Source: Gemmatimonadota bacterium
GTDB taxonomy: Bacteria; Gemmatimonadota; Gemmatimonadetes; JACCXV01; JAHWKZ01
NCBI GenBank assembly: GCA_050732875.1
Contig: JBOHRQ010000008.1
Span: 1,384 to 65,383, forward strand
DNA: 64,000 bases
Direction of reading: 5' to 3'
This document shows positions 6,114 to 48,913 of this stretch, piece after piece; the first letter of the stretch is position 1, and each line of letters opens with the position of its first letter. The translations under genes were made by a program, and so were the position numbers. A model generated the notes under the pieces. That model was not told the origin of the DNA. It was given only the letters and a program-made list of their open reading frames with translations, and made no database searches.

Positions 6114-7556
6114 CTATCTCCGGAACCGCGCGAGCGCGGCGACGATCGAATCCTGAACCGCCCGCCGCGGCCCGGTCGGTCCGGGGAAGAACTCCATGAC
6201 CATGCTGAAGGCCAGCGGCTCTCCGCCGGCCGACATGACGTACCCGGAAAGAGCGGAAACGCCGGACAGGGAACCGGTCTTCGCGCGCGCGTTTCGTTCC
6301 GCGGCGGTTCCTCGCATACGCTCCTCGAGAGTGCCGTCCACGCCGGCGATCGGAAGCGCGCTGAAGAATGACGGCGCGAGATCCTCGCGCCGCGCGACGT
6401 ACGCGAGCAAGTGCACGATCTGTCGCGCCGTGACGAGGTTGTAACGCGAGACGCCGGAGCCGTCGGCCAGCACCATGGCGGTCGTGTCGATCCCCACCTC
6501 GCTCGCCAGGAAGCGCCGCTCCGCCGCTAGACCGGTCTCGTAGTCTCCGGGTGGCCCTGCCACCTCGGCACCGATCACTTTCACGAGCTGCTCCCCCGTG
6601 AGGTTGTCGCTGACCTTGAGGAAGTTGCGTACGCTCACGGAGAGAGAGTCGCTGCGATGGCGGGCGATCGGATGCAGGACCTCGGGGCGGGATGGACGGC
6701 CCGCGGTCAGTGCCGGATCCGCGGGCCCGAGCACGGTCACCCCGCGTCGCGCGAGCAGCTCCCCGAAGACGACCGCCGCGTAAAGGGCCGGGTCCTCGAC
6801 GGTCCGGACCTCGATCACCGGATCGCTTCCGATCGGCAGCACCCCTCGGACGTCGATCACGTTCTCCTTGGGCGTCCAGTGACGTTCGACCGTCAACGTC
6901 GATTCTCCACCAGACGGTCCGGTGCGCGCGCTGACACGCATCTCGATGAACGCGGTCGGCGGATCCAGCGCGGCCCGGACCGGGTCGCCGGCGGCGGCAC
7001 CCGGCTCGACGCGCACCGTGACCGCGTTGTCGTTCAGCGTGAGCGCGCTGCTGTAGGGCCAGTACCAGTACGGGCCGTCGTCCCACATCCATCCCGATCC
7101 CCAGGCCGGCCCGGCGAAGTAATCCGTCACCGGCCGGATGCGTCCTTCGACCGCGCGAACGCCAAGCGAGGCGAGGCTGTCGGCGAGCGCCGCGAGGTCC
7201 TCCGTGACCAGATCGGGGTCGCCACGCCCCACGAGATAGAGATCGCCGCGCAAGGTGTCGCCGGTGACCCGGGCGTCCGAAGCTAGGGTGGTGACGAAAC
7301 GATGGTCGGGACCCAGATAGTGAAGCGCCGATGCGGCGGTGAAGAGCTTGAGGTTGGAGGCCGGCGTGTAGAGGCGATCCGCCTCGCGGGCGTAGATGGT
7401 GTCACCCCGATCCAGCGACACGACGAGCAGGGCGGTCCCGGAGTGGCGGAGACCGGGATCCGCGAGAAGCCGATCGAGTGTCTCGACGACGATCTCGCTG
7501 CCGGCCCCCCGGGCCGAGGACAACGCGCACGCCGCGGGCAGGCCGAGACAGGCCAT
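6114..7556 (-). CDS. dacB: D-alanyl-D-alanine carboxypeptidase/endopeptidase, PBP4 family (peptidase S13)
   Basis: Active-site 'SNLK' context ('ASNLKLFTAASAL'). The C-terminus 'VLADGSGVSRYN', 'IAGVDGTLE..R' and 'AKTGSLSGVSALSGYV' matches PBP4/DacB. Start set at ATG 7556 ('MACLGLPAAC'). The upstream part of the long ORF is the reverse-frame shadow of the lysine-rich gene. Confidence 0.8.
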   Translation of the reverse strand: MACLGLPAACALSSARGAGSEIVVETLDRLLADPGLRHSGTALLVVSLDRGDTIYAREADRLYTPASNLKLFTAASALHYLGPDHRFVTTLASDARVTGDTLRGDLYLVGRGDPDLVTEDLAALADSLASLGVRAVEGRIRPVTDYFAGPAWGSGWMWDDGPYWYWPYSSALTLNDNAVTVRVEPGAAAGDPVRAALDPPTAFIEMRVSARTGPSGGESTLTVERHWTPKENVIDVRGVLPIGSDPVIEVRTVEDPALYAAVVFGELLARRGVTVLGPADPALTAGRPSRPEVLHPIARHRSDSLSVSVRNFLKVSDNLTGEQLVKVIGAEVAGPPGDYETGLAAERRFLASEVGIDTTAMVLADGSGVSRYNLVTARQIVHLLAYVARREDLAPSFFSALPIAGVDGTLEERMRGTAAERNARAKTGSLSGVSALSGYVMSAGGEPLAFSMVMEFFPGPTGPRRAVQDSIVAALARFRR

Positions 7557-7642
7557 GACGACGAAAGCCCGCAGGAGCGGGCTTTCGCGAAAGCGTCGAA
7601 GCGGTCCGAGCCGATCGATCGGCAGTAAGGCTTGCTCGAAGG

Positions 7643-7792
7643 TTACTTCTTCTTTCTCTTCCTTGAAGCCTTCTTCTTCTTGGAGCCCTTCTTTTTCGAG
7701 GCCTTCCTCGAGGCCTTCTTCCTTGAAGCCTTCTTGCGGGCCTTCTTCTTCGAGGCCTTCTTTCTGGTCGACTTTCTGGCCATTGCAGCCAT
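7643..7792 (-). CDS. small lysine-rich histone H1-like basic protein (49 aa, KKAS repeats)
   Basis: 'MAAMARKSTRKKASKKKARKKASRKKASRKASKKKGSKKKKASRKRKKK'. An AGGAGG Shine-Dalgarno (SD) sequence sits 7 nt upstream of the ATG at 7792. The upstream region is AT-rich, which is unusual in this genome. Confidence 0.55.
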   Translation of the reverse strand: MAAMARKSTRKKASKKKARKKASRKKASRKASKKKGSKKKKASRKRKKK

Positions 7793-7892
7793 ACCGTTTC
7801 CTCCTGGTCTGAGCGTCACGACGGTCGGACCGCTCGACAAAAAAAAGTCTATCACAACAATGTGAACGTGCGCAATAGTTTGAACGAGAAAA

Positions 7893-7933
7893 AGAAAGTA
7901 GAAAAAGACTCATCCGGCGAGCGTGTTGACGAG
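7893..7933 (-). terminator. putative intrinsic terminator of pfkA
   Basis: On the minus strand, 'CTCGTC'-13 nt-'GATGAG' forms a 6-bp stem (one GU) spanning the pfk stop. It is followed by 'TCTTTTTCTACTTTCTTTTTCTCG', a T-rich run that is rare in a 70% GC genome. Confidence 0.4.
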
Positions 7934-8902
7934 CTCGAGCAGCGATCGATCGATCTCTTTGTTCTCGGCGACCGCTTCGGCGATCGGTGTCGCGCACACG
8001 GCTTGTCCACGCAAACCGAAGAGCAGGTCGCGCCGGCCTTCGATCGCCGCTCGAGTGGCAGCCGACGCGAGACGGCTGGCAAGAACGCGATCCCGCACGG
8101 TCGGGTTGCCGCCGCGCTGGATGTGCCCGAGGATCGTTACACGCGGGCCGGCTCCGGGCAGATCCCTCAAGCCTGGCGAGCGATCATCGAGCTCCTGGAG
8201 GAGCCCTCGAGCCCCACCGGGATGAGCGCCTTCGGCGACCACGACGATGCACGAGAGCTTCCCGCGACTATAGTTGCCACGGATCACCTCCACGAGCGCG
8301 GCCGGATCGAGCTCCACCTCCGGCAGCACGACCGCCTCCGCGCCACCGCCTACCGCGACCTCGAGCGCGATGAAGCCGCGATTTCGTCCCATGACCTCGA
8401 TGAAGAAGAGACGTTCGAGGGCGTGCGCGGTGTCGCGGACTCGATCGATGGCCTCGAGCGCGGTGTTGCAGGCCGTATCGAAGCCGATCGACTGATCCGT
8501 TCCGCCGAGGTCGTTGTCGATCGTCGAGGCGACGCCGAGGACGGCGCCGTCCCACATCGACTGGAGGTGCGTGGCGCCGTTCTGGGTACCCTCTCCCCCG
8601 ATCGTGATCAGCGCGCTGCAGCGCCGGCGGGTGAGGACGTCGCAGGCGGCACGCCGAACCGCCTCGTCGCGGAAGCGGACCTCGCGCGCGGTGTCGAGCA
8701 CAGACCCTCCACGCTGCAGGACGTTGGCCACGCTGCGCGGCGTGAGCGGGATCGCGTCGTCGTCGATCAGGCCGCAGAAGCCCCTGCGAAACCCGATGAC
8801 GTCCCAGCCGGCGTGCGCGGCGGTGCGCACGACGGCGCGAATGGCCGCGTTCATTCCGGGCGCGTCGCCCCCGCTGGTCAGGACGCCTAGACGCGAGGCC
8901 AT
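7910..8902 (-). CDS. pfkA: ATP-dependent 6-phosphofructokinase
   Basis: 'GVLTSGGDAPGMNAAIR', 'ITIGGEGT', 'STIDNDL', 'MGRNRGFIALE' and 'LGHIQRGG' are canonical PFK motifs. Confidence 0.9.
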   Translation of the reverse strand: MASRLGVLTSGGDAPGMNAAIRAVVRTAAHAGWDVIGFRRGFCGLIDDDAIPLTPRSVANVLQRGGSVLDTAREVRFRDEAVRRAACDVLTRRRCSALITIGGEGTQNGATHLQSMWDGAVLGVASTIDNDLGGTDQSIGFDTACNTALEAIDRVRDTAHALERLFFIEVMGRNRGFIALEVAVGGGAEAVVLPEVELDPAALVEVIRGNYSRGKLSCIVVVAEGAHPGGARGLLQELDDRSPGLRDLPGAGPRVTILGHIQRGGNPTVRDRVLASRLASAATRAAIEGRRDLLFGLRGQAVCATPIAEAVAENKEIDRSLLELVNTLAG

Positions 8903-28400: not shown

Positions 28401-28594
28401 CCAGCGTCATGAAGCGGATCGCCGCGCCCATGGTCGGCGGGATGGTCTCGGTCACGGTGCTGGCGCTCCTCGTGATCCCCGCCCTGTACTCGTTCTGGCG
28501 CGAGCGTCAGCTAGTGCGGCAGAGCCGCCGCCAGCGGGTGACGGATGCGATGGGCGACGAAGCCGCCACACCGGCCCTCACAGGTCTATCTTGA
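25406..28594 (+). CDS. cusA: CusA/CzcA-family heavy-metal efflux RND transporter
   Basis: 1062 aa with 12 transmembrane helices (TMs) and two large periplasmic loops. 'MLKRVIEWSIHNKLLVLL' is a classic CusA/CzcA N-terminus. Confidence 0.95.
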   Translation: MLKRVIEWSIHNKLLVLLATAAVAVFGLAAMLTTPVDAIPDLSDVQVIIVTDWAGQAPQVIEDQVTYPLSTEMIKVPRTKFVRGVSQFGRSYVYVVFEDDVDLYWARSRVLEYLNTVRDRLPAAVQPQLGPDATGVGWVYQYLLVDTTGTYNLAQLRSLQDWTVRFQLQAVDGVAEVATLGGFEKQYQVDIVPERLLAYGIPVSQIVQAIRESNQDVGARAIELGGAEFMVRGLGYIGGLEDIRAISVGSTPAGVPLTVDDVADVHPGPQERRGIADLSGKGEVVTGFVVMRYGENPLAVIEAVEEKIREVEKGLPAGVTIVAGYDRSNLIHRAIDTLKEKLLEESVIVALVAMAFLLHARSALVAIVTLPLGILMAFIAMRWLGVNANIMSLGGIAIAIGAMVDAAIVMIENMHKHIERNEREGGRLSIWQMAADSAGEVGPSLFFSLLIITVSFVPVFALTGQSGRLFEPLAWTKTLAMAAASLLSVTLVPVLMGYFIRGRIRAEEENPVNRALLRMYRPTIGWILDRRSWVIVGAAALLLVTVIPWTRLGSEFMPPLNEGAIMDMPSLFPGVGTAQARRIFQQRDSAMATVPEVEMVLGKIGRAESATDAAPMSMIESVAILKPEEEWREGMTQEEIEAELDRVTKTPGVANMWSQPIKNRLDMLATGIKTPVGIKVFGPDLATLERIGKEIEGLLPTVKGTRSVYAERAVGGRYLEIEVDRATIARYGLSVEDVQETLMTAVGGVEATETIEGRERYTVLVRYPRGLRNDAEAIARVLVPTPAGAQVPLGQLAEIRFDDGPDMIKSEDARLNSIVYVDIGDRDIGSYVEEARELLDRWLDLPPGYTLEWSGQFEYMQEANRNLRYMVPVTVGIIFLLLFLNFGSLIESLIVMVSLPLALVGGVWLMWALGYNLSVAAGVGFIALAGVAAEIGIVMLVYLDQAYHRGVLAGTMRDRRDVFAAVREGAGERVRPIMMTATAVIGGLLPILWGHGTGASVMKRIAAPMVGGMVSVTVLALLVIPALYSFWRERQLVRQSRRQRVTDAMGDEAATPALTGLS

Positions 28595-28710
28595 CCTGGG
28601 ACAGGCGGGCCTCAAAGAACCGCGTGAGCGCCTCGCACAGCGCGATCCGCACTCCTGGCTTCGTGCTCGAGCTATCGAAGCGACTGCGCGAGGCGAGATT
28701 CACGGCGCAA

Positions 28711-29183
28711 TCAAGTCAGAATCCCCGACTTCTGATAGATTGGGGTCTTCCAAACCGTCGCGACGGCTCTCATCCGGAACCGCCTCTTCAGGTATTGTTC
28801 GATCGCGGCGACGTAGCGCGGGAAGACCTCCCGTGCCTTGCCGACTGCCTGCAGGATGATCCCGTCGTCGATGTTCTCGTACTCGTGGATGATTCGGTTT
28901 CGAAGGCCGGCGGACGGGGGCAGGGATTCTGCAAGTTGGCTTGGAATCACCTTCTCACGTCCCACGGCGATAAAGCTCTCGAAGTAGTCCAGGGGAGTCT
29001 TCGCGTCCCGGTCGCGCAGGATGTGCAGGTTGATATCGACGGCCGCTTCGACAGTTTCCTGGAGGGCGCGCTCCGTACCTTTCAGCCGGAAGAAGTCCCC
29101 GATGTACTCCTCCAGCGTGAGTCCCTCAATCCCTCGAGATGATCCACATTTCTGCCTATAACGGCGAGCTTCCGCCGCACCAT
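28711..29183 (-). CDS. hepT: HepT-like HEPN toxin (DUF86), apparently disrupted by a 1-nt deletion (-1 frameshift)
   Basis: HEPN R-x4-HxY motif 'LRNRIIHEYENID'. Strong similarity to characterised HepT ('AVDINLHILRDRDAKTPLDYFESFIAVG'). The HepT-like N-terminus 'MVRRKLAVIGRNVDHLEGLRD' (ATG 29183) is in another frame and joins the main frame near 29120. In the main frame only a TTG at 29235 is available as a start. Confidence 0.6.
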
Positions 29184-29200
29184 GGCTGCGTCCAGTGGGG

Positions 29201-29635
29201 TCACGTCCGTTCCGCTGTTCGCCCGATGAAGTCAAGAACCTCTTCTCGCTCCGCCAGGCGGAACTTCCTGGTGTCGGCGTACCGACGGACCGCCAGCGAG
29301 CAGAAGCGAGCGAATGCTCCCGATTCGGCCTCGTACAGTGGCAATCCGTCCTTTGCCACGAACATCATGAGGAGCGGATCGGCCCGGCGGAGGTCTGCGA
29401 TGTCGACTTCCTGGACTCCGAGCACCTGGATAAAACGATTCGTCGCATGCACCGTGTCGAGCTCATCACGCGAGACGATCGCCAGGTCGATGTCTTCGGT
29501 GAACGCTTCATTGCGTGCCGTGGATCCGAACAGGATGATCAGACGGACCTCGAGCTCGCGTCCGATCTCGTTGGCCGCAACCCGGAGACGCTCAATCGAA
29601 ACGGTAGGGCTCGGAGGTTTCATCTCGCGCTGCAT
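29201..29635 (-). CDS. mntA: MntA-like minimal nucleotidyltransferase antitoxin
   Basis: NTase motif 'LFGSTARNEAFTEDIDLAIV' (GS...DxD). It lies immediately upstream of hepT with a 17-nt gap. Confidence 0.7.
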   Translation of the reverse strand: MQREMKPPSPTVSIERLRVAANEIGRELEVRLIILFGSTARNEAFTEDIDLAIVSRDELDTVHATNRFIQVLGVQEVDIADLRRADPLLMMFVAKDGLPLYEAESGAFARFCSLAVRRYADTRKFRLAEREEVLDFIGRTAERT

Positions 29636-29784
29636 GATGCTTGAAGATACTATGCGGAGGAGGAACAAGGATCGGCTGCCCTCGACGCCGCTCACTCCTC
29701 GTGGGGCGGTGAGTCGGTTCCTTCATGCGGCGGGCTCCGTCCTGGCGATCATCGTCGGTAGGGAGCCGCCGGCGGTGGTCCTCT

Positions 29785-29813
29785 TGACCTGGATACCCTA
29801 CAATGGTATAGTA
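29785..29813 (+). promoter_or_regulatory. csoR-copA promoter (TTGACC-16-TATAGT) with overlapping CsoR operator
   Basis: 'TACCCTACaatgGTATAGTA' (29794-29813) closely matches the B. subtilis CsoR box TACCCTACggggGTATgGTA. -35 TTGACC at 29785-29790. -10 TATAGT at 29807-29812, ending 8 nt before the csoR ATG, so the transcript is leaderless. Confidence 0.55.
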
Positions 29814-29820
29814 TAGAATC

Positions 29821-30129
29821 ATGGTCCAGCGCAAGTCTCACGGATACGAACGGGCCCGGGTCAAGCCGGACCTGGAGAACCGCCTCAAGCGGATCGAGGG
29901 GCAGGTGCGGGGGGTCCAGCGGATGGTGGAGGAGGGCCGCTACTGCGTGGACATTCTGACCCAGATCGACGCCGTCACGGCGGCGCTCGCCCGGGTGCAG
30001 GACCGGATCCTCGAGGCCCATCTCAACCATTGCGTCATTGACGCCCTCGAAGGGAGCGACACCGCGAACGTACGAGAGAAAGTCGACGAGGTGGTCGGGC
30101 TGCTCAGGAAGTTCCGGCGGACCGGATGA
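29821..30129 (+). CDS. csoR: copper-sensing transcriptional repressor CsoR (CsoR/RcnR family)
   Basis: Cu(I) ligands in the C...H-x3-C pattern: 'RYCVDIL' and '[10 protein letters not shown]'. The 102 aa are typical of the DUF156 fold. Confidence 0.85.
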
Positions 30130-42919: not shown

Positions 42920-43423
42920 CTACCGGCAGATCGCCTCGAAGTCGAACACGTCCACGATCACGTCGCCATTGGCGTTGACCGTGACCTTTTCCTTCACACG
43001 GATGTCCAGATTCGGCGTAGTGCCCTGGCCGATCAGGCGCGTGTGATCGTTCAGGATGAACGTGAACGCTCCCTCGGGTGCGACGTTCGTGATGTCGAGG
43101 AGCCGGTCGTTCCACTGGTAGGTCGAGCCGGTCGACTGGCCGACGCCGGTCCCCTTGGCGTTGATGTGGAACCGGAACAGGACCTTCCCGTTCGGCCCAA
43201 AGAGAAATTTGGAGTTGTCGTGGAAGGTGCCGCTCAGGTCGACATCCTCGGTACAGCCGGGGAAGGTGAAGTCGAAGGGTTGGAAGGACGGGTTGGGGAC
43301 AGCGGCGAGACGGGGCTCGTCGAACGCCAATTGATCCACGGACGAGGGGGATCCGTCGCAGCCGAGCACCACGGCGAGCGCGGCCAGGGCCACAGCTGAG
43401 GGCCGTACGGGCGACATGTGCAC
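42920..43423 (-). CDS. lipoprotein, function unknown
   Basis: GGAGG then 3 nt then ATG 43423. Lipobox 'VVLGCDG'. Confidence 0.55.
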   Translation of the reverse strand: MHMSPVRPSAVALAALAVVLGCDGSPSSVDQLAFDEPRLAAVPNPSFQPFDFTFPGCTEDVDLSGTFHDNSKFLFGPNGKVLFRFHINAKGTGVGQSTGSTYQWNDRLLDITNVAPEGAFTFILNDHTRLIGQGTTPNLDIRVKEKVTVNANGDVIVDVFDFEAICR

Positions 43424-43924: not shown

Positions 43925-44545
43925 TCAGTGCCCCGGGCGCGTGGCGGTCGCCACGATCCCGGTGTCGGCTTCGAGGCGGTCGAAGTAGTCGCGAATAAGG
44001 GCCACGCCCGCGTCGAACGGCGCCAAGTCGCGGTGCGTGCGGGCCTGCATGACCCCACCCTCCATCGTCGTCAGGACGAGCTGCGCCAGCGCGTGACGGT
44101 CCAACTCGGCGGGGAGCCGGTCGCCCGCCTCCTCGAGGCAGCGCTCCACCGCCGCTACCCAGCCGGCGAAGTTGGATGCGAGCCGCTCCCGGACCGGCGG
44201 ATCCGGCTCGTGGAGCTCGAGCGCCAGGCTGCCGATCGGGCAGCCGTAGAAGCACTCGGTCATCTCGAGCAGCTCGCGGTACTTCGCGAGCAGGGCGAAC
44301 ACGCGGTCGATCGGATCGTCCACGCCTTCCCAGGCAGGCTCGAGGAGCATCGGCCCGATTGCCTGTTGATAGCGGTCGAGGACCGCCATCAGCAGGTCCT
44401 GCTTGGTGGGGAAGAAGTGGTACAGGCTCCCGCTGTTGGCGTCGGCCGCCGCCAGGATGTCGGCCACGCTGGTCGACTGGTAGCCCTTCTCCCAGAACAG
44501 GCGCATGGCGGAGTCGATCAGGCGTTCGCGGGTCTCGGCGGGCAT
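43925..44545 (-). CDS. TetR/AcrR-family transcriptional regulator
   Basis: The helix-turn-helix 'RERLIDSAMRLFWEKGYQSTSVADILAAADANSGSLYHFFPTKQDLLMAVL'. Confidence 0.8.
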   Translation of the reverse strand: MPAETRERLIDSAMRLFWEKGYQSTSVADILAAADANSGSLYHFFPTKQDLLMAVLDRYQQAIGPMLLEPAWEGVDDPIDRVFALLAKYRELLEMTECFYGCPIGSLALELHEPDPPVRERLASNFAGWVAAVERCLEEAGDRLPAELDRHALAQLVLTTMEGGVMQARTHRDLAPFDAGVALIRDYFDRLEADTGIVATATRPGH

Positions 44546-44619
44546 CGGCCACAGGGCCTCCAGTTGAATGAGCGATCAAGAATAGCGGAGGCGGTTACAC
44601 GAACGCAAGACGGGAGCTC

Positions 44620-44649
44620 TTGACACAGCGTACGGATTAGCGTACGCTC
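44620..44649 (+). promoter_or_regulatory. yefM-yoeB promoter with paired palindromic operator
   Basis: TTGACA (44620-25), then two GCGTACG(C) palindromes with GTAC cores 12 bp centre-to-centre (44628-34, 44640-47), as in the E. coli yefM operator. They lie immediately before the ATG. Confidence 0.5.
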
Positions 44650-44654
44650 TACAC

Positions 44655-44897
44655 ATGAAGACGATTTCGGCCACCGAGGCCCGACGCCTCCTCTACCGTC
44701 TCCTCGACGAGGTGACGGTCACGAGCGAGCCGGTCCAGATCACCGGGAAGCGCGGCAGCGCTGTGCTCCTCTCGGACGCGGACTATCGCTCTATCCAGGA
44801 GACTCTCTACCTGCTCTCCATCCCCGGCATGCGCGAGTCGATCCGGGAAGGTATGGCGGAGCGCATCGAAGACTGCCTCGAGGAGCTCGACTGGTGA
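44655..44897 (+). CDS. yefM: Phd/YefM-family antitoxin
   Basis: 'MKTISATEARRLLYRLLDEV...PVQITGKRGSAVLLSDADYRSIQETLYLLSIPGMRESI'. Confidence 0.85.
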   Translation: MKTISATEARRLLYRLLDEVTVTSEPVQITGKRGSAVLLSDADYRSIQETLYLLSIPGMRESIREGMAERIEDCLEELDW

Positions 44898-45160
44898 AGC
44901 CCTGGCGGGTCGTCTTCACCCGCCAGGCTCGAAAGGACGCGAAGAAGCTGACGGCTGCGGGGCTGAAGCCCAAGGCCGAGTACCTGCTTGACATCCTTCG
45001 CAGAGATCCTTTACAAAGCCCGCCCCCGTTCGAAAAGCTCCTCGGCGACCTGTCGGGAGCGTATTCGCGCCGTATCAACGTGCAGCACCGTTTGGTCTAT
45101 CAGGTTCTCGAAGCCGAGAGAACCGTCAAGGTTCTGCGGATGTGGACGCACTACGAGTAG
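44894..45160 (+). CDS. yoeB: Txe/YoeB-family toxin (mRNA interferase)
   Basis: GTGA overlap with yefM. 'WRVVFTRQARKDAKKL', 'LSGAYSRRINVQHRLVYQV', 'VKVLRMWTHYE'. Confidence 0.85.
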   Translation: MKPWRVVFTRQARKDAKKLTAAGLKPKAEYLLDILRRDPLQSPPPFEKLLGDLSGAYSRRINVQHRLVYQVLEAERTVKVLRMWTHYE

Positions 45161-46167
45161 GAACGTCGGGGAAACCCTCTCTTCCAGACCCCCTCCATCA
45201 GCATAAGACCTCGCTTGATCGACCTCGTGGCATGCGACGCTTGCGACTCAAAATCATTCCCTCGCGGAACGCGAATGGAAACGCCGTTTTCAGACAGTTG
45301 GATGACCTGGAGGAGAGATGACTGGTGCAGCAGCATGGAATCCTTGCTATAGGTCAAGGACGCCCACGGCATGCCCATCGAGCGTAGCTTTCCCTTCACC
45401 CCGCCTGCCGACTTGCTGGATCCCTGAGATGATTCGAAAAGGTCAGTGAAAGGAAGGTACGTTCTCTTCTTTCGTTGCTTACGAATGCGGTCGACCCATT
45501 CGGAGAGATCGAGGTCCTTGATCAGCCGCTCGGTCATGGCCCTCCGCGCATCCAGGGCCTTTTCATACCGCTCGCGGTCCAATTTTGCCTCCGCGTCGCT
45601 GACGATCTCGATCTCGCCCAACTCTCGTTCGTGATGCTCTCGATAGGGGCCCATGGCGCGAACTAACTCGCGCTGCCAGCGATAGTCGAACAGCATGTCA
45701 AGCATGCCAGGTTCGAGGCGATTCTCCAGTAGTAGAACATCCTCTTCCAGACACCAGGCGCAGTAAGCTTTCAGGCGATCGCGGATTTCCTCCGGGGGTT
45801 CATCCACAGGGATGTCAGCGAAATCCCGGCTCTCCGGATCGCCACCTCGCCAGCGCGGGTTGCCGATGGTTCCGATGTGAAGCTCAAGTTCAAAGAGCGG
45901 GCGGTTGAGAAGATCGAGCAGTAAAGAGCTCTCTTCCCTGAGCGCACTGCGCACGGCGCTCAGCAAGAGGAAATGCTTCGCCCAAAGGGCATACCATCCT
46001 ACCGAGGGGCCGCTTATGGGCGCCTGCTTGAGGAACTGCGCGATTCGGAAAGACCATTCGCTGGCCTTTAGCAACTCGCGCTCGAGACCTTCCGTGTTCT
46101 GTAGCTTTTCCTCGAGTTTGGATCTGTCCCACGGCGGGATTACGAAATCACCAGGAATGGGCGTCAT
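45151..46167 (-). CDS. hypothetical protein (338 aa) in a low-GC island
   Basis: ATG 46167 ('MTPIPGDFVIPPWDRSKLEEKLQ'). GC is visibly lower than the flanks. No recognisable domain. Confidence 0.5.
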   Translation of the reverse strand: MTPIPGDFVIPPWDRSKLEEKLQNTEGLERELLKASEWSFRIAQFLKQAPISGPSVGWYALWAKHFLLLSAVRSALREESSLLLDLLNRPLFELELHIGTIGNPRWRGGDPESRDFADIPVDEPPEEIRDRLKAYCAWCLEEDVLLLENRLEPGMLDMLFDYRWQRELVRAMGPYREHHERELGEIEIVSDAEAKLDRERYEKALDARRAMTERLIKDLDLSEWVDRIRKQRKKRTYLPFTDLFESSQGSSKSAGGVKGKLRSMGMPWASLTYSKDSMLLHQSSLLQVIQLSENGVSIRVPRGNDFESQASHATRSIKRGLMLMEGVWKRGFPRRSYS

Positions 46168-46204
46168 CCCGCCCACTCGTACCTGAGTGGCACCATCACC
46201 GTGG

Positions 46205-47125
46205 CTATTCCCCGCGCTCAGGCACGAGGCGTGCTGCGCGAACGAACTCGGCCAGGTCCTGGTTGAACCGGTCCGGGTCCTCGAAGAACGGGGCGTGGCC
46301 GGAGCCCTCATAAACGAGCAGCCTGGCGCCGGGGACGGTCCCGGCGATGTGCTCGCCCGAGCTCAACATGACGACCCGATCCCCTCCGCCGTGGACGACG
46401 AGGGTCGGCACGCCGATCGAGGCGAGCACATCGTCGTTGTCGAGCTGGCGGCTGAAGAGCGCGAGCCGTACCTCCGGCGGAATCATCATAGCGCTGGCGA
46501 GGGCGATATCGAAGGTTTCATCGTCCATCGGCTGCGCGGTGATCAGACCCAGGAAAGCGCGGGTCGCGTCGATGCTGGTGCGGACGTCTGTGGAGAACAC
46601 GCCGCCCATCAGTTGCAGCAGCTCTTCCCCGAGATCGGCCTGGGCTTCCTCAGTCCCGGCTCTGGACGACACGCCCACGAAGACGATGCCGCCGAGCGCA
46701 TCGTCGCCGTGCGAACGCAGGTAGTCGGCGATGACGTAGCCGCCGTAGGACCAGCCCACGAGCACGGGTCGCTCGATCGCCCTGGCCTCGATCACCGCGG
46801 CGATGTCCTCGGCCCACAGGGCGGAGTCGGTGTAGGCTGCCGCGTCCAGCGGCTTGTCGGATGCGCCATGCCCGCGGAGGTCGAGCGCGACCAGCCGGAA
46901 CTCGTCGGCCAGAGGCCCGGAGAATTGCCGCTCCCAGGTGAGGTGGTTCTGGCTGAAGCCGTGGATGAACAGGATGGGCGGTCCGTCCGGGTTGCCGGCT
47001 TCGTAGATCGCCAGATCGAGCCCGCCGCCTCCGGAGATCATCTCCGGGCCCTGGGCGTGAGCCTTCGACCCGGCCGCGAGCGCCAGGCTCACCGCCAGCA
47101 TCGTCATGCCTGCCAGCCTGTGCAT
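46205..47125 (-). CDS. secreted alpha/beta hydrolase
   Basis: GGAAGGGAG then 8 nt then ATG. Signal peptide. 'ILFIHGFSQN', nucleophile elbow 'GWSYGG', 'LVVHGGGDRVV', 'GHAPF'. Confidence 0.8.
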   Translation of the reverse strand: MHRLAGMTMLAVSLALAAGSKAHAQGPEMISGGGGLDLAIYEAGNPDGPPILFIHGFSQNHLTWERQFSGPLADEFRLVALDLRGHGASDKPLDAAAYTDSALWAEDIAAVIEARAIERPVLVGWSYGGYVIADYLRSHGDDALGGIVFVGVSSRAGTEEAQADLGEELLQLMGGVFSTDVRTSIDATRAFLGLITAQPMDDETFDIALASAMMIPPEVRLALFSRQLDNDDVLASIGVPTLVVHGGGDRVVMLSSGEHIAGTVPGARLLVYEGSGHAPFFEDPDRFNQDLAEFVRAARLVPERGE

Positions 47126-47163
47126 GGATTCTGCTCCCTTCCGTTCGCGCACGACCGCGGAGG

Positions 47164-47631
47164 TCAGTTTCCCTGGCCACCGCCTTCATCCAGGTACTGG
47201 ACCGTGAACGGACCCTGGCCTTGGACGTCCACGATCACCTCCTCCTCGCCGGTGTAGGGGCGCATCGGGATCCCTGCAGGAAGGGCCACGAAGGCGCCGG
47301 GTCCGAAGCTCCTGGCGGCCTCCCGGCTCAGGTCGTCCCCGTAAGCGAACAGCATGGTGCCGGAATACACCGTGACGATCTCGGCCCCGCCGTGGGTGTG
47401 CGGGCGTCCGGCCCAGTTCGGCGGCAGCTTGAAGCGGAGCACGTAGTGGCCCTCGGCAGCCGGATTGCCGTAGAGAACGGCCATGAGCGATCCATCGTCC
47501 CTTTCCTGCCAGGCAAGCTCGCCCGGCTGGACGGCGACGATGCCCGCTGCGGCGCTGTCCTGTCCATGAAGAAGCGCGGGCGTGGGAAAAAGCAGAAGGA
47601 GGGCGATGAGAGCGCGAAGGAAGAGTTGCAT
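47164..47631 (-). CDS. secreted cupin-domain protein
   Basis: Signal peptide. 'GRPHTHGGAEIVTVYSGTMLF' is a cupin motif. Paralog of 51879-52406. Confidence 0.65.
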   Translation of the reverse strand: MQLFLRALIALLLLFPTPALLHGQDSAAAGIVAVQPGELAWQERDDGSLMAVLYGNPAAEGHYVLRFKLPPNWAGRPHTHGGAEIVTVYSGTMLFAYGDDLSREAARSFGPGAFVALPAGIPMRPYTGEEEVIVDVQGQGPFTVQYLDEGGGQGN

Positions 47632-47704
47632 GTTACCTCCTCGGCAAGAGAATCATCGCCACTGATAACATCGGCTCTGGAAACGAGCAAATCGCAGGGC
47701 GCGC

Positions 47705-48913
47705 CTACTCGTACCTGAGCGCCACGATCGGATCGAGCCGCGCCGCGCGATTGGCGGGCCAGAGACCGAAGAAGAGTCCGACCACCCCCGAGAACAGGAC
47801 GGCCAGCCCGATCGCTAGGGCCGAGACGTCGGTGTTCCAGTTCGCCGCGCGGGAAAGCCCCACCGAGGCCCCGATCCCGATCCCGATACCGACCAGCCCA
47901 CCCAGGACGCACAGGACCAGCGCCTCCAGCAGGAACTGCACCAGGATCGCCCGGCGGGTCGCACCCAGCGCTTTCCGGACGCCGATCTCGCGGGTCCGCT
48001 CGGTGACCGACACGAGCATGATGTTCATGATCCCGATCCCGCCCACGATCAAGCTCACCGCCGCGATCCCGGCCAGCAGCCAGCTGAAGGTGCGGGTCGT
48101 CTCCTGCTGGGTTCCCAGAAGCTCGGTCCGGTCCTGGATCCAGAAGTCGTTCTCGTCGCCGACCCGCAGCCGGTGCTGGCGACGGAGGACCTGCTCGATC
48201 TGAGCCATCGCCGCGGTCATCATCGCGGGATCGGTCACCGACGCGTTGAAGCGGTCGATCGTCTCGTCCCCCTTGATGCGGAAGCGCGCCGTCTGAAGCG
48301 GCACCAGGATGACCTCGTCCTGGTTGAACCATCCGGTGCCGCCCTTCTCCTCGAGCACGCCGACGACCTCGAACGGGATGTTGTCGATCCGGATCGAGCG
48401 CCCGACGAGCTCGACCGGCTCGGCCGCCAGGACCTCGGGCACGGCGCCTCCCAGGACCGCGACACGGCGCCGTCCCTGGTCCTCCTCGGCGGTGAAGAAG
48501 CGCCCCAGCGCCAGCGGGAAGCGGTTGACCTCGGGATAGTTGGCCGTCGTGCCCATGATGCGGACGTTGGCGTTCGTGGCGCCGTTCTCGACCTGCTCGC
48601 TGCTCGTCATCTCCGGCGCGACATCCCTCACGAGCGGAGCCCCCCGGACGACCGCCTCGGCGTCGTCCATGGTGAGGTCGGCTTCCATGGAGCGGGCGCC
48701 TCGGAACCATCCCTGCCCGGGACGTATGGTGAGAACATCGGTGCCGAGCTGGGCGATCTGCTCCTGGACGGCACGCTGGGCGCCCGAGCCCAGCGCCAGC
48801 ATGGTGATCACAGCCGCCACGCCGATGATGATCCCCAGCATGGTGAGGAAGGATCGCAGCTTGTTGGCGCGCAGGGAGTCGAGCGCGACGCGGATGATCT
48901 CGAGGAGCAGCAT
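47705..48913 (-). CDS. ABC transporter permease, FtsX/MacB family (no fused ATPase)
   Basis: 'FLTMLGIIIGVAAVI', a periplasmic domain, and C-terminal 4-TM FtsX with 'ERTREIGVRKALGA'. Confidence 0.85.
   Translation of the reverse strand: MLLLEIIRVALDSLRANKLRSFLTMLGIIIGVAAVITMLALGSGAQRAVQEQIAQLGTDVLTIRPGQGWFRGARSMEADLTMDDAEAVVRGAPLVRDVAPEMTSSEQVENGATNANVRIMGTTANYPEVNRFPLALGRFFTAEEDQGRRRVAVLGGAVPEVLAAEPVELVGRSIRIDNIPFEVVGVLEEKGGTGWFNQDEVILVPLQTARFRIKGDETIDRFNASVTDPAMMTAAMAQIEQVLRRQHRLRVGDENDFWIQDRTELLGTQQETTRTFSWLLAGIAAVSLIVGGIGIMNIMLVSVTERTREIGVRKALGATRRAILVQFLLEALVLCVLGGLVGIGIGIGASVGLSRAANWNTDVSALAIGLAVLFSGVVGLFFGLWPANRAARLDPIVALRYE

What the first reader, a model, noticed from the sequence alone, without database searches (positions are those of the whole stretch)
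44546..46170. yefM-yoeB toxin-antitoxin pair with E. coli-like paired GTAC palindromes, beside a low-GC hypothetical gene
The operator GCGTACGgattaGCGTACGC has GTAC cores 12 bp apart, matching the known YefM-YoeB operator geometry, and sits right at the start codon, so the transcript is possibly leaderless. Convergent with the pair and overlapping yoeB by 10 nt is a 338-aa ORF with no recognisable domain. It lies in sequence that looks around 52-58% GC against about 70% for the flanks, so it is probably horizontally acquired. Unknown genes beside toxin-antitoxin pairs in foreign-looking islands are often phage-defence or abortive-infection candidates.
Basis: partly seen in the sequence, partly recalled or inferred. 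Interest (0 to 1): 0.55.

Follow-up and report, generated by a model that had tools for sequence, protein, structure and literature searches.

The report
Toxin-antitoxin pair plus inserted orphan gene
A textbook YefM-YoeB toxin-antitoxin pair in a Gemmatimonadota genome lies next to a separately acquired, fast-evolving gene of unknown function; that gene's distant relatives mostly sit among anti-phage defence genes, so it is a reasonable but unproven defence candidate.

Summary
yefM (44655-44897) and yoeB (44894-45160) pass curated family thresholds. The paired CGTACG palindromes (GTAC cores 12 bp apart) are unique in the window, conserved in a related genome, and match the published YefM-YoeB operator geometry. 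The convergent 338-aa ORF (45151-46167) overlaps yoeB by 10 nt and is the window's strongest GC and tetranucleotide outlier.

New findings:
- ORF338 is a real gene under purifying selection (dN/dS 0.23-0.30).
- It belongs to an uncharacterised family of about 193 clusters with only sub-threshold similarity to Pfam DUF5677.
- Its confident all-alpha model (pLDDT 92) matches nothing in PDB or BFVD.
- It is a gene-sized indel wedged between the convergent stop codons of yoeB and macB. The closest relative (L011) has those stops 6 nt apart, with a decayed yoeB and no ORF338. So the TA pair and ORF338 are separable, and the overlap looks like an insertion by-product.
- Seven of ten independent family contexts contain restriction-modification, Dpd, Qat-like, GmrSD, TA or recombinase genes. 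In one, the gene sits where a Qat system would carry its QatD nuclease.

Verdict: an ordinary TA module beside a plausible, unproven stand-alone defence gene.

The parts
43925..44545 (-). tetR-family regulator, divergent from yefM. It is the left flank of the islet and is native-like (GC 0.70, GC3 0.92).
   Evidence: Pfam TetR_N and TetR_C_13. It is 89% identical in L011.
44620..44654 (+). yefM-yoeB promoter/operator. It contains a -35 TTGACA (44620-25), a short palindrome CGTACG (44629-34), a long palindrome AGCGTACGCT (44639-48) that overlaps a -10-like TACGCT (44643-48), and then the ATG at 44655.
   Evidence: Read from the sequence. The paired motif is unique in the window. TTGACA and both CGTACG boxes are conserved in L001. 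The geometry matches PMC1802561. The consensus promoter scan does not call it.
44655..44897 (+). yefM, a Phd/YefM-family antitoxin and presumed autorepressor
   Evidence: PF02604 at 64.7 bits. It is 89% identical in L001, with dN/dS 0.14.
44894..45160 (+). yoeB, a Txe/YoeB-family ribosome-dependent mRNA interferase toxin. Its GTG start overlaps the yefM stop (GTGA).
   Evidence: TIGR02116 at 89.7 bits. The best solved relative is a chain deposited as 'Putative mRNA interferase YoeB' (7v5y, E=4e-12), with FEKL, SRRINxQHRxVY and WxHY conserved. dN/dS is 0.10.
45151..46167 (-). ORF338, an accessory gene of an uncharacterised all-alpha family that is distantly DUF5677-like. It is a gene-sized insertion between the yoeB stop and the macB stop. 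Its last three codons and its stop codon are read antisense through the end of yoeB.
   Evidence: No library hits. Only two orthologues, at 55-61% identity. A family of 193 clusters. dN/dS 0.23-0.30. AlphaFold2 pLDDT 92.1. No fold match. Absent from L011.
46170..46197 (-). Relic copy of the macB 3' end, with the stop codon TAG changed to TGG, immediately upstream of the ORF338 start codon. It marks the ancestral macB-ORF338 junction.
   Evidence: 24/28 direct repeat with 47702-47729. The local alignment scores 36, against a shuffle mean of 17.8 and maximum of 27. L001 has a 160-nt relic at the same position.
46205..47631 (-). Alpha/beta hydrolase (46205-47152) and cupin (47164-47631). This is a second, native-GC segment lying between the two macB 3'-end copies. 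It is absent from L011 and is not part of the TA/ORF338 unit.
   Evidence: Pfam. The flanking repeat is shown. Synteny is mapped.
47702..47729 (-). True 3' end of macB (the gene is 47705-48913), the partner of the relic repeat
   Evidence: This segment is 91% identical to L011.

Best explanation
Two independent things lie side by side.

(1) A canonical type II yefM-yoeB module.
- YefM, or the YefM-YoeB complex, binds the paired CGTACG palindromes that overlap the -10 region and represses its own promoter.
- When YefM is lost, YoeB cleaves ribosome-bound mRNA.
- This step follows from family membership and operator geometry. It was not tested biochemically.

(2) ORF338, a single accessory gene that entered, or sits in, the few-nucleotide gap between the convergent stop codons of yoeB and macB.
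- It was probably first expressed by read-through from macB, and is now probably read through from the hydrolase gene.
- Its overlap with yoeB arose because the inserted piece has almost no non-coding sequence, so translation runs on to the first antisense stop inside yoeB.
- It belongs to a sparse, horizontally mobile family of about 330-aa all-alpha proteins.
- In that family, paired conserved residues lie on successive helices: W58/W62, R89/E93, W138/D143 and S277/H281. This suggests one catalytic or ligand pocket (inference).

I think the most likely role is a stand-alone conflict or anti-phage effector. I put that at about 40%, and the biochemical activity is unknown. A hydrolase acting on nucleic acid is my guess, because in one relative the gene occupies the slot that the QatD nuclease holds in Qat systems.
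For: TA module:
- Family scores are above curated cut-offs.
- The conserved YoeB motifs align with solved YoeB.
- The genes overlap by 4 nt and are under purifying selection.
- The operator is unique and conserved, with the published 12-bp geometry.

ORF338 is a real gene:
- dN/dS is 0.23-0.30 across three lineages.
- The profile search finds 193 clusters at E<=1e-3.
- The model has pLDDT 92.1 and pTM 0.89.

ORF338 is foreign and dispensable:
- GC3 is 0.62-0.68 against 0.80-0.94 in neighbouring genes, and the region is the top tetranucleotide outlier.
- L011 is 89-93% identical in the flanking proteins. It has the yoeB remnant stop and the macB stop 6 nt apart, with no ORF338.
- Only 1 of 80 anchored reference loci carries ORF338.
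- Family genes have lower GC than their flanks in all ten loci, for example 0.32 against 0.57 in L003.

ORF338 is independent of the TA pair:
- L011 has a yoeB relic without ORF338.
- No neighbour is shared among family loci.
- The overlap is 4, 10 or 35 nt in the three lineages.

Defence association:
- L009 has REase_III, QatC (8e-55) ending 10 nt before the family gene, then GmrSD/HNH.
- L008 has DpdB (3e-119), WYL and DUF87.
- L010 has a resolvase plus HsdM and HsdS.
- L092 has HepT/MNT and a PvuII restriction-modification system.
- L006 has an integrase and BrnT.
- L003 and L091 have TA pairs.
- DUF5677, the nearest named family, is strongly enriched beside defence-marking serine recombinases (p=2e-92, n=25).
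Against: - Neither ORF338 nor the family gives a consistent PADLOC hit.
- The DUF5677 similarity is sub-threshold. It is seen in only 13 of 107 members and covers only the C-terminal motif region.
- The one DUF5677 ORF tested against six E. faecalis phages was not among the protective ones.
- Three of ten contexts (L005, L094, L096) show no defence genes.
- I ran no matched control for how often random genes in such genomes lie near defence or TA genes.
- The window locus itself is not a defence island. Its flanks are TetR, MacAB, a hydrolase and a cupin.
- No fold match exists to support any catalytic assignment, and I could not inspect model coordinates.
- The direction of the indel is not settled. 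The flank similarity tree favours one old gain and a later loss in L011.
Confidence: 0.55

Rival explanations
1. ORF338 is a functional third component of the YefM-YoeB module, for example a sensor, a regulator or a second effector. Convergent overlapping transcription would couple its expression to the TA operon.
For: The three genes are adjacent, and the ORF overlaps yoeB, in all three genomes that carry ORF338. No terminator separates the convergent genes. TA pairs of other families lie near relatives in L003, L006, L091 and L092.
Against: The three loci are orthologous, so they amount to a single observation. L011 retains a yoeB remnant at the same site without ORF338. None of the ten distant contexts has yefM-yoeB adjacent, and no partner is shared. 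The overlap length is not conserved (4, 10 and 35 nt). ORF338 diverges 1.5-4 times faster than yoeB.
Confidence: 0.08
2. ORF338 is a non-defence accessory protein, such as a niche-specific enzyme or stress protein. On this view it simply sits in variable genome regions where defence genes and TA modules also accumulate.
For: Three of ten contexts lack defence genes. The window flanks are efflux and regulator genes. The tested DUF5677 ORF gave no reported protection. There are no defence-library hits.
Against: In L009 the gene is packed tightly behind QatC, in the slot where a Qat system carries its QatD nuclease. In L010 and L092 it lies directly between restriction-modification and recombinase or TA genes. 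Fast evolution, patchy distribution and low GC are typical of conflict genes.
Confidence: 0.3
3. ORF338 is a selfish, self-inserting gene, analogous to a free-standing homing endonuclease. It would create its own presence/absence polymorphism between conserved genes.
For: It is a gene-sized indel with 5-17 nt or less of non-coding flank on either side. It sits in the loop of the hairpin formed by the convergent yoeB and macB ends. It is present in some close relatives and absent in others. No recombinase is nearby. It has low GC and evolves fast.
Against: It resembles none of the known homing-endonuclease folds or motifs that I recall, and it has no fold hits. The divergence topology of ORF338 matches that of its flanks, which suggests vertical descent after one gain. 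Relatives are found at unrelated sites without an obvious common target. Flank erosion after an ordinary insertion explains the tight borders equally well.
Confidence: 0.05
4. ORF338 is a spurious or decaying ORF in an AT-drifted intergenic remnant.
For: It has low GC and atypical codon usage, no domain hits, and a first shallow AlphaFold2 model with pLDDT 38.
Against: The reading frame is kept at full length in three lineages, with dN/dS 0.23-0.30 despite dS of about 0.7-1.2. The family has 193 clusters of similar length with invariant residues. With the deep alignment the model reaches pLDDT 92.
Confidence: 0.02

Closest known systems
E. coli YefM-YoeB, with its paired L/S palindrome operator (Kedzierska et al. 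2007, PMC1802561)
   Same: The gene order is antitoxin then toxin, with overlapping genes. The families are Phd/YefM and Txe/YoeB. There are two palindromes with GTAC centres exactly 12 bp apart, lying over the -10 region and close to the start codon.
   Different: The hexamers are CGTACG rather than TGTACA. Here the longer palindrome (AGCGTACGCT) is the promoter-proximal one. YoeB is closer in sequence to a solved YoeB chain (7v5y, E=4e-12) than to E. coli YoeB (2a6q, E=1e-4). There is no recognisable Shine-Dalgarno sequence, so a leaderless or very short leader mRNA is possible but untested.
Pfam DUF5677 (PF18928), a family of unknown function that is enriched beside serine recombinases in Bacillota defence regions (bioRxiv 10.1101/2025.10.07.681051)
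   Same: Thirteen of 107 members of the ORF338 family give weak hits (best E=9e-6). Where I could see the hit, it covered the C-terminal part of the model (positions 122-162 of 166), which coincides with the family's invariant S-x3-H-G-S motif. Both families are associated with defence or mobile regions.
   Different: ORF338 itself does not hit the model at E<=0.1, and the one hit I could inspect is below the 27.1-bit gathering score (16.9 bits). ORF338-family proteins are about 330 aa, while the model has 166 positions. DUF5677 has no known function, and the tested member was not among the ORFs reported to protect.
QatD, the TatD-family nuclease of QatABCD anti-phage systems (PMC13434339)
   Same: In locus L009 a family member follows a QatB-sized gene and a strong QatC homologue by 10 nt. 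This is where Qat systems carry QatD, and no TatD gene is present.
   Different: This is a single observation. The predicted fold is all-alpha, not a TIM barrel. The window has no Qat genes. This is an analogy of position, not homology.
Free-standing accessory gene cassettes (integron cassettes, free-standing homing endonuclease genes)
   Same: It is a single promoterless ORF with almost no non-coding flanks. It is inserted between conserved genes and shows presence/absence polymorphism between close relatives.
   Different: There is no attC site, and no room for one. There is no integron integrase and no known homing-endonuclease motif or fold.

Membership tests
Phd/YefM antitoxin (PF02604) | Sequence match above the curated threshold | tested here: met
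   64.7 bits against a cut-off of 29.8, covering residues 1-70. TIGR01552 phd_fam scores 29.2 against 20.8.
Phd/YefM antitoxin (PF02604) | Encoded immediately upstream of the cognate toxin and translationally coupled to it | tested here: met
   The yefM stop and the yoeB GTG start overlap by 4 nt (44894-44897).
Phd/YefM antitoxin (PF02604) | Neutralises the toxin and represses its own promoter | not testable with these tools
   This needs toxicity-rescue and gel-shift or reporter assays.
Txe/YoeB toxin (TIGR02116 / PF06769) | Sequence match above the curated threshold | tested here: met
   TIGR02116 scores 89.7 bits against 51.8. PF06769 scores 40.4 against 27.
Txe/YoeB toxin (TIGR02116 / PF06769) | Catalytic Glu, Arg and C-terminal His-Tyr (E46, R65, H83, Y84 in E. 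coli numbering, from my own knowledge of Kamada and Hanaoka 2005) | tested here: met
   Alignment to solved YoeB 7v5y shows FEKL, SRRINxQHRxVY and WxHY conserved. By contrast, the L011 remnant has R->C and H->D changes and a frameshift.
YefM-YoeB-type operator | Paired palindromes with GTAC cores, 12 bp centre-to-centre (11-13 bp in other genomes), within 80 bp of the yefM start (PMC1802561) | tested here: met
   GTAC cores are at 44630 and 44642, and the ATG is at 44655. The pair is unique in the window and conserved in L001.
Pfam DUF5677 (PF18928) | Sequence match above the gathering score (27.1 bits) | tested here: not met
   ORF338 has no hit at E<=0.1. Thirteen of 107 relatives hit weakly (best E=9e-6); the one I inspected scored 16.9 bits over model positions 122-162.
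Known anti-phage defence proteins (PADLOC-DB 2.0) | Match to a defence-system protein model | tested here: not met
   ORF338 has none at E<=1. Across the family there are only four different single-member hits.
HEPN-type RNase effectors | A conserved R-x(4-6)-H motif in an alpha-helical bundle | tested here: not met
   The invariant H281 is preceded by the invariant S277 (S-x3-H-G-S). No conserved Arg lies 4-6 residues upstream. No HEPN structure was found by Foldseek.
Integron gene cassette | An attC recombination site at the 3' end of the ORF and an integron integrase nearby | tested here: not met
   Only about 10 nt separate the conserved coding sequence from the yoeB stop. No suitable repeats were found. 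No integrase was seen among the genes scanned near the locus.
Phage-encoded protein family | Relatives in phage genomes or phage protein families | tested here: not met
   PHROGs gives no family-wide hit. INPHARED gave no hit for P0021. IMG/VR gave no hit for ORF338 or P0025. PLSDB plasmids gave no hit.

The most novel reading that the evidence does not exclude
The ORF338 family is a new class of stand-alone anti-phage or conflict effector with a previously unseen all-alpha fold and an R/E...D...S-x3-H pocket. It can replace the TatD nuclease in Qat-like systems. It spreads as a promoterless, recombinase-free, gene-sized cassette that lands between convergent stop codons, here in the loop of the yoeB/macB terminator-like hairpin.
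Probability: 0.12. Interest if true: 0.7.

Novelty: new member of a known kind. Interest (0 to 1): 0.4.

Why it matters
The TA module adds little. It extends the E. coli-type paired-GTAC operator to Gemmatimonadota, a phylum with almost no experimental genetics.

ORF338 is the useful part.
- It defines a compact family (about 330 aa, about 193 clusters at 50% identity) with a confident predicted fold that matches no solved or viral structure.
- The family has a small set of invariant polar residues.
- It is repeatedly embedded among restriction-modification, Dpd, Qat-like and TA genes.

That makes it a cheap candidate to test for a new defence effector.

The locus also gives an unusually clean natural experiment. 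Filled and empty alleles of the same junction exist in close relatives. This shows that the TA pair and the neighbouring orphan gene are independent acquisitions. It warns against reading "unknown gene next to a TA pair" as a functional unit.

Tried and rejected
Structure and fold:
- AlphaFold2 with only the three orthologues gave an unusable model (pLDDT 38). It was replaced by the 107-sequence run.
- Foldseek against PDB and BFVD gave nothing better than E=0.1 and TM 0.25.
- A profile search of PDB sequences gave nothing.

Sequence searches:
- The word-indexed search with the 107-sequence profile recovered only 4 proteins.
- tblastn against plasmids and phages found no match. IMG/VR found none.
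- An NCBIfam scan of the family found nothing relevant.
- The DUF5677 preprint supplement gives no sequence for a profile-profile comparison.

Hypotheses rejected:
- The 386-aa start.
- A spurious ORF.
- An integron cassette or attC site, and flanking direct repeats of an integrative element around ORF338.
- tRNA or structured-RNA integration targets.
- A conserved partner gene across family loci.
- HEPN membership, because there is no R-x4-6-H motif.

Not resolved:
- The hairpin upstream of ORF338 has no U-tract and was not interpreted further.
Full report
**Observation.** The window comes from a Gemmatimonadota metagenome-assembled genome. NCBI annotates the ORF as hypothetical protein ACREMK_03120.
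- yefM is 44655-44897 and yoeB is 44894-45160, with a GTG start overlapping the yefM stop. Both are on the + strand.
- YefM scores 64.7 bits on PF02604 (cut-off 29.8). YoeB scores 89.7 bits on TIGR02116 (cut-off 51.8).
- YoeB aligns end to end with a solved YoeB chain (7v5y, E=4e-12). The FEKL, SRRINxQHRxVY and C-terminal WxHY motifs are kept.
- Between the window and the orthologous locus L001, the pair is 88-89% identical, with dN/dS 0.10-0.14. It therefore looks functional.

**Operator.**
- GCGTACGGATTAGCGTACG (44628-44646) places two CGTACG palindromes with GTAC cores exactly 12 bp apart. The second extends to the 10-bp palindrome AGCGTACGCT (44639-48).
- In the whole window it is the only match with 1 mismatch or fewer. 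The background matches at 2-3 mismatches are at chance level (22 found, 15 expected).
- A perfect TTGACA sits at 44620-25. Seventeen nucleotides later, TACGCT overlaps the second palindrome. The ATG follows 6 nt after that.
- TTGACA and both CGTACG boxes are conserved in L001.
- Kedzierska et al. describe the same architecture for E. coli yefM-yoeB. There, paired TGTACA boxes are 12 bp centre-to-centre and cover the -10. Many other genomes have GTAC cores 11-13 bp apart (PMC1802561).
- The leaderless idea fits the spacing and the absence of a Shine-Dalgarno sequence. However, the generic promoter scan does not call the site, and L001 starts with GTG. It stays untested.

**ORF338 is real but anonymous.**
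- The ORF (45151-46167, minus strand) overlaps yoeB by 10 nt. It hits nothing in Pfam, NCBIfam, PADLOC or PHROGs.
- Its GC is 0.571 and its GC3 is 0.68, against 0.80-0.92 in neighbouring genes. It lies in the lowest-GC kilobase of the window and in the top tetranucleotide outlier (z 4.1-4.4).
- Among 5.8 billion proteins it has two close relatives, at 61% and 55% identity. Across the three lineages the frame is intact and dN/dS is 0.23-0.30.
- A profile search of 1.84 billion cluster representatives found 193 relatives, mostly 310-350 aa.
- In a 107-sequence alignment H281 is invariant. P11, W58, W62, R89, E93, W138, D143, W224 and S277 are at least 93% conserved. The motif is S-x3-H-G-S.
- With that alignment AlphaFold2 gives an all-alpha model plus one hairpin, at pLDDT 92.1 and pTM 0.89. 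The three-sequence run had failed.
- The conserved residues come in i/i+4 pairs on successive helices. I read that as one pocket, but I could not check it on coordinates.
- Thirteen of 107 members weakly hit Pfam DUF5677. The hit I could inspect covered the C-terminal part of that model and was below threshold.
- DUF5677 has no known function. A preprint finds it strongly enriched next to defence-marking serine recombinases (p=2e-92). The one ORF tested was not among those that protected.

**Genomic history.** Using the neighbouring DUF819 gene as an anchor, I fetched 80 loci from reference genomes and mapped the window's genes onto them.
- The closest relative, L011, is 93% identical in DUF819, 89% in TetR and 93% in MacB. 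It has tetR followed by a 3' remnant of yoeB. That remnant lacks the N-terminus, is frameshifted, and has motif substitutions.
- Six nucleotides after the remnant's stop comes the stop codon of the convergent macB: cacTACGAGTAGggacggCTACTCGTAcct. This folds as a hairpin (z -3.4).
- L011 has no yefM, operator, ORF338, hydrolase or cupin.
- In the window, in L001 (which matches reference locus L013 at 99.8% over the ORF) and in L002, the conserved coding sequence of ORF338 begins 5-17 nt from a relic of the macB 3' end. It ends within about 10 nt of the yoeB stop.
- ORF338 is therefore a roughly 1.0-kb, gene-sized indel in that 6-nt gap.
- Its variable tail and its overlap with yoeB (4, 10 and 35 nt in the three lineages) come from reading antisense into yoeB until a stop appears.
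- In the window, a second segment (hydrolase plus cupin, native GC) lies between the relic (46170-46197) and the true macB end (47702-47729). These two form a 24/28 direct repeat.
- ORF338 diverges 1.5-4 times faster than the adjoining yoeB, but with the same topology. That favours one old horizontal gain, rapid evolution and a later loss in L011. Repeated gain cannot be excluded.
- Either way, the TA pair and ORF338 are separable.

**Contexts of distant relatives.** I could read ten independent contexts (PADLOC on neighbours).
- L009 has a type III-like REase, a QatB-sized gene, and QatC (8e-55) ending 10 nt before the family gene. AIG2 and GmrSD/HNH follow. No TatD gene is present, so the family gene sits where QatD, the Qat nuclease (PMC13434339), would be.
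- L008 has two DpdB genes (one at 3e-119), WYL, DUF2779 and DUF87.
- L010 has a resolvase, three unknown genes, the family gene, Nmad2, HsdM and HsdS.
- L092/L093 have HepT-MNT and a PvuII restriction-modification system.
- L006 has a tyrosine integrase and BrnT.
- L003 has a TumE/HVO_A0114 pair.
- L091 has a BrnT pair.
- L005, L094 and L096 show nothing defence-like.
- No neighbour is shared between loci, and the family gene has lower GC than its flanks in every locus.
- No relatives were found in phage or plasmid collections.
- I ran no matched control, so the 7/10 figure is suggestive only.

**Verdict.** The TA module is a canonical, probably active yefM-yoeB with the known operator design, which is ordinary. 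ORF338 is a horizontally acquired, dispensable, fast-evolving single gene. It belongs to an uncharacterised family with a confident fold that has no match in the libraries I could search. The family lives mostly in defence or mobile regions.

A stand-alone defence or conflict effector is the best single reading, at about 40%. A non-defence accessory protein is the main rival, at about 30%. A functional tie to YefM-YoeB is unlikely. The biochemical activity remains unknown.

Noticed in passing
window 46170-46197 and 47702-47729: This is a 28-nt direct repeat (24/28) of the macB 3' end. It brackets the alpha/beta-hydrolase and cupin genes. The hydrolase's C-terminal tail (..RAARLVPERGE*) appears to be partly built from the relic of macB's ..RAARLDPIVALRYE*. 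This suggests a second insertion event at the same hot spot.
   Followed up: partly
L011 12322-12540: The closest relative carries a dead yoeB. It lacks yefM, the operator and codons 1-23, is frameshifted, and has R->C and H->D motif changes. Its stop lies 6 nt from the macB stop. The two 'YE*' gene ends form a 9-bp inverted repeat that folds as a hairpin (dG -26 kcal/mol, z -3.4).
   Followed up: yes
L001 2356-2565 (protein P0003): The 415-aa gene call for the L001 orthologue starts 70 codons too early. The extension is an in-frame reading of a 160-nt macB 3' relic (about 80% identical to window MacB residues 350-398), not part of the protein.
   Followed up: yes
L001 4204-4386: The TetR regulator next to the TA pair is truncated in L001 to its 60-aa N-terminal HTH domain. 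The lipoprotein gene present in the window (42920-43423) is missing there. This is further evidence that the neighbourhood is prone to indels.
   Followed up: no
L009 5364-9020: This is a Qat-like operon. A 260-aa gene overlaps a QatC homologue (PADLOC 8e-55), which is followed 10 nt later by an ORF338-family gene instead of the TatD-type QatD. It is possibly an effector swap.
   Followed up: partly
L003 10001-11053: The family member in a Thermodesulfobacteriota MAG has GC 0.32 in a locus of GC 0.57. This is a much stronger compositional anomaly than in the window. A conserved 187-aa unknown gene lies upstream, and a TumE/HVO_A0114 pair lies downstream.
   Followed up: no
window about 7001-8500 and about 28501-30100: These are two other compositional outliers in the window. 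Their 1-kb GC is 0.60-0.62, and the tetranucleotide z reaches 3.4 at 7501. I did not examine them.
   Followed up: no
window 46160-46215 (minus strand): The 37-nt spacer between the hydrolase stop and the ORF338 start folds into stable stem-loops (z -2.4), one of which includes the start codon. There is no U-tract, so it is not an intrinsic terminator. It could affect translation initiation of ORF338.
   Followed up: partly
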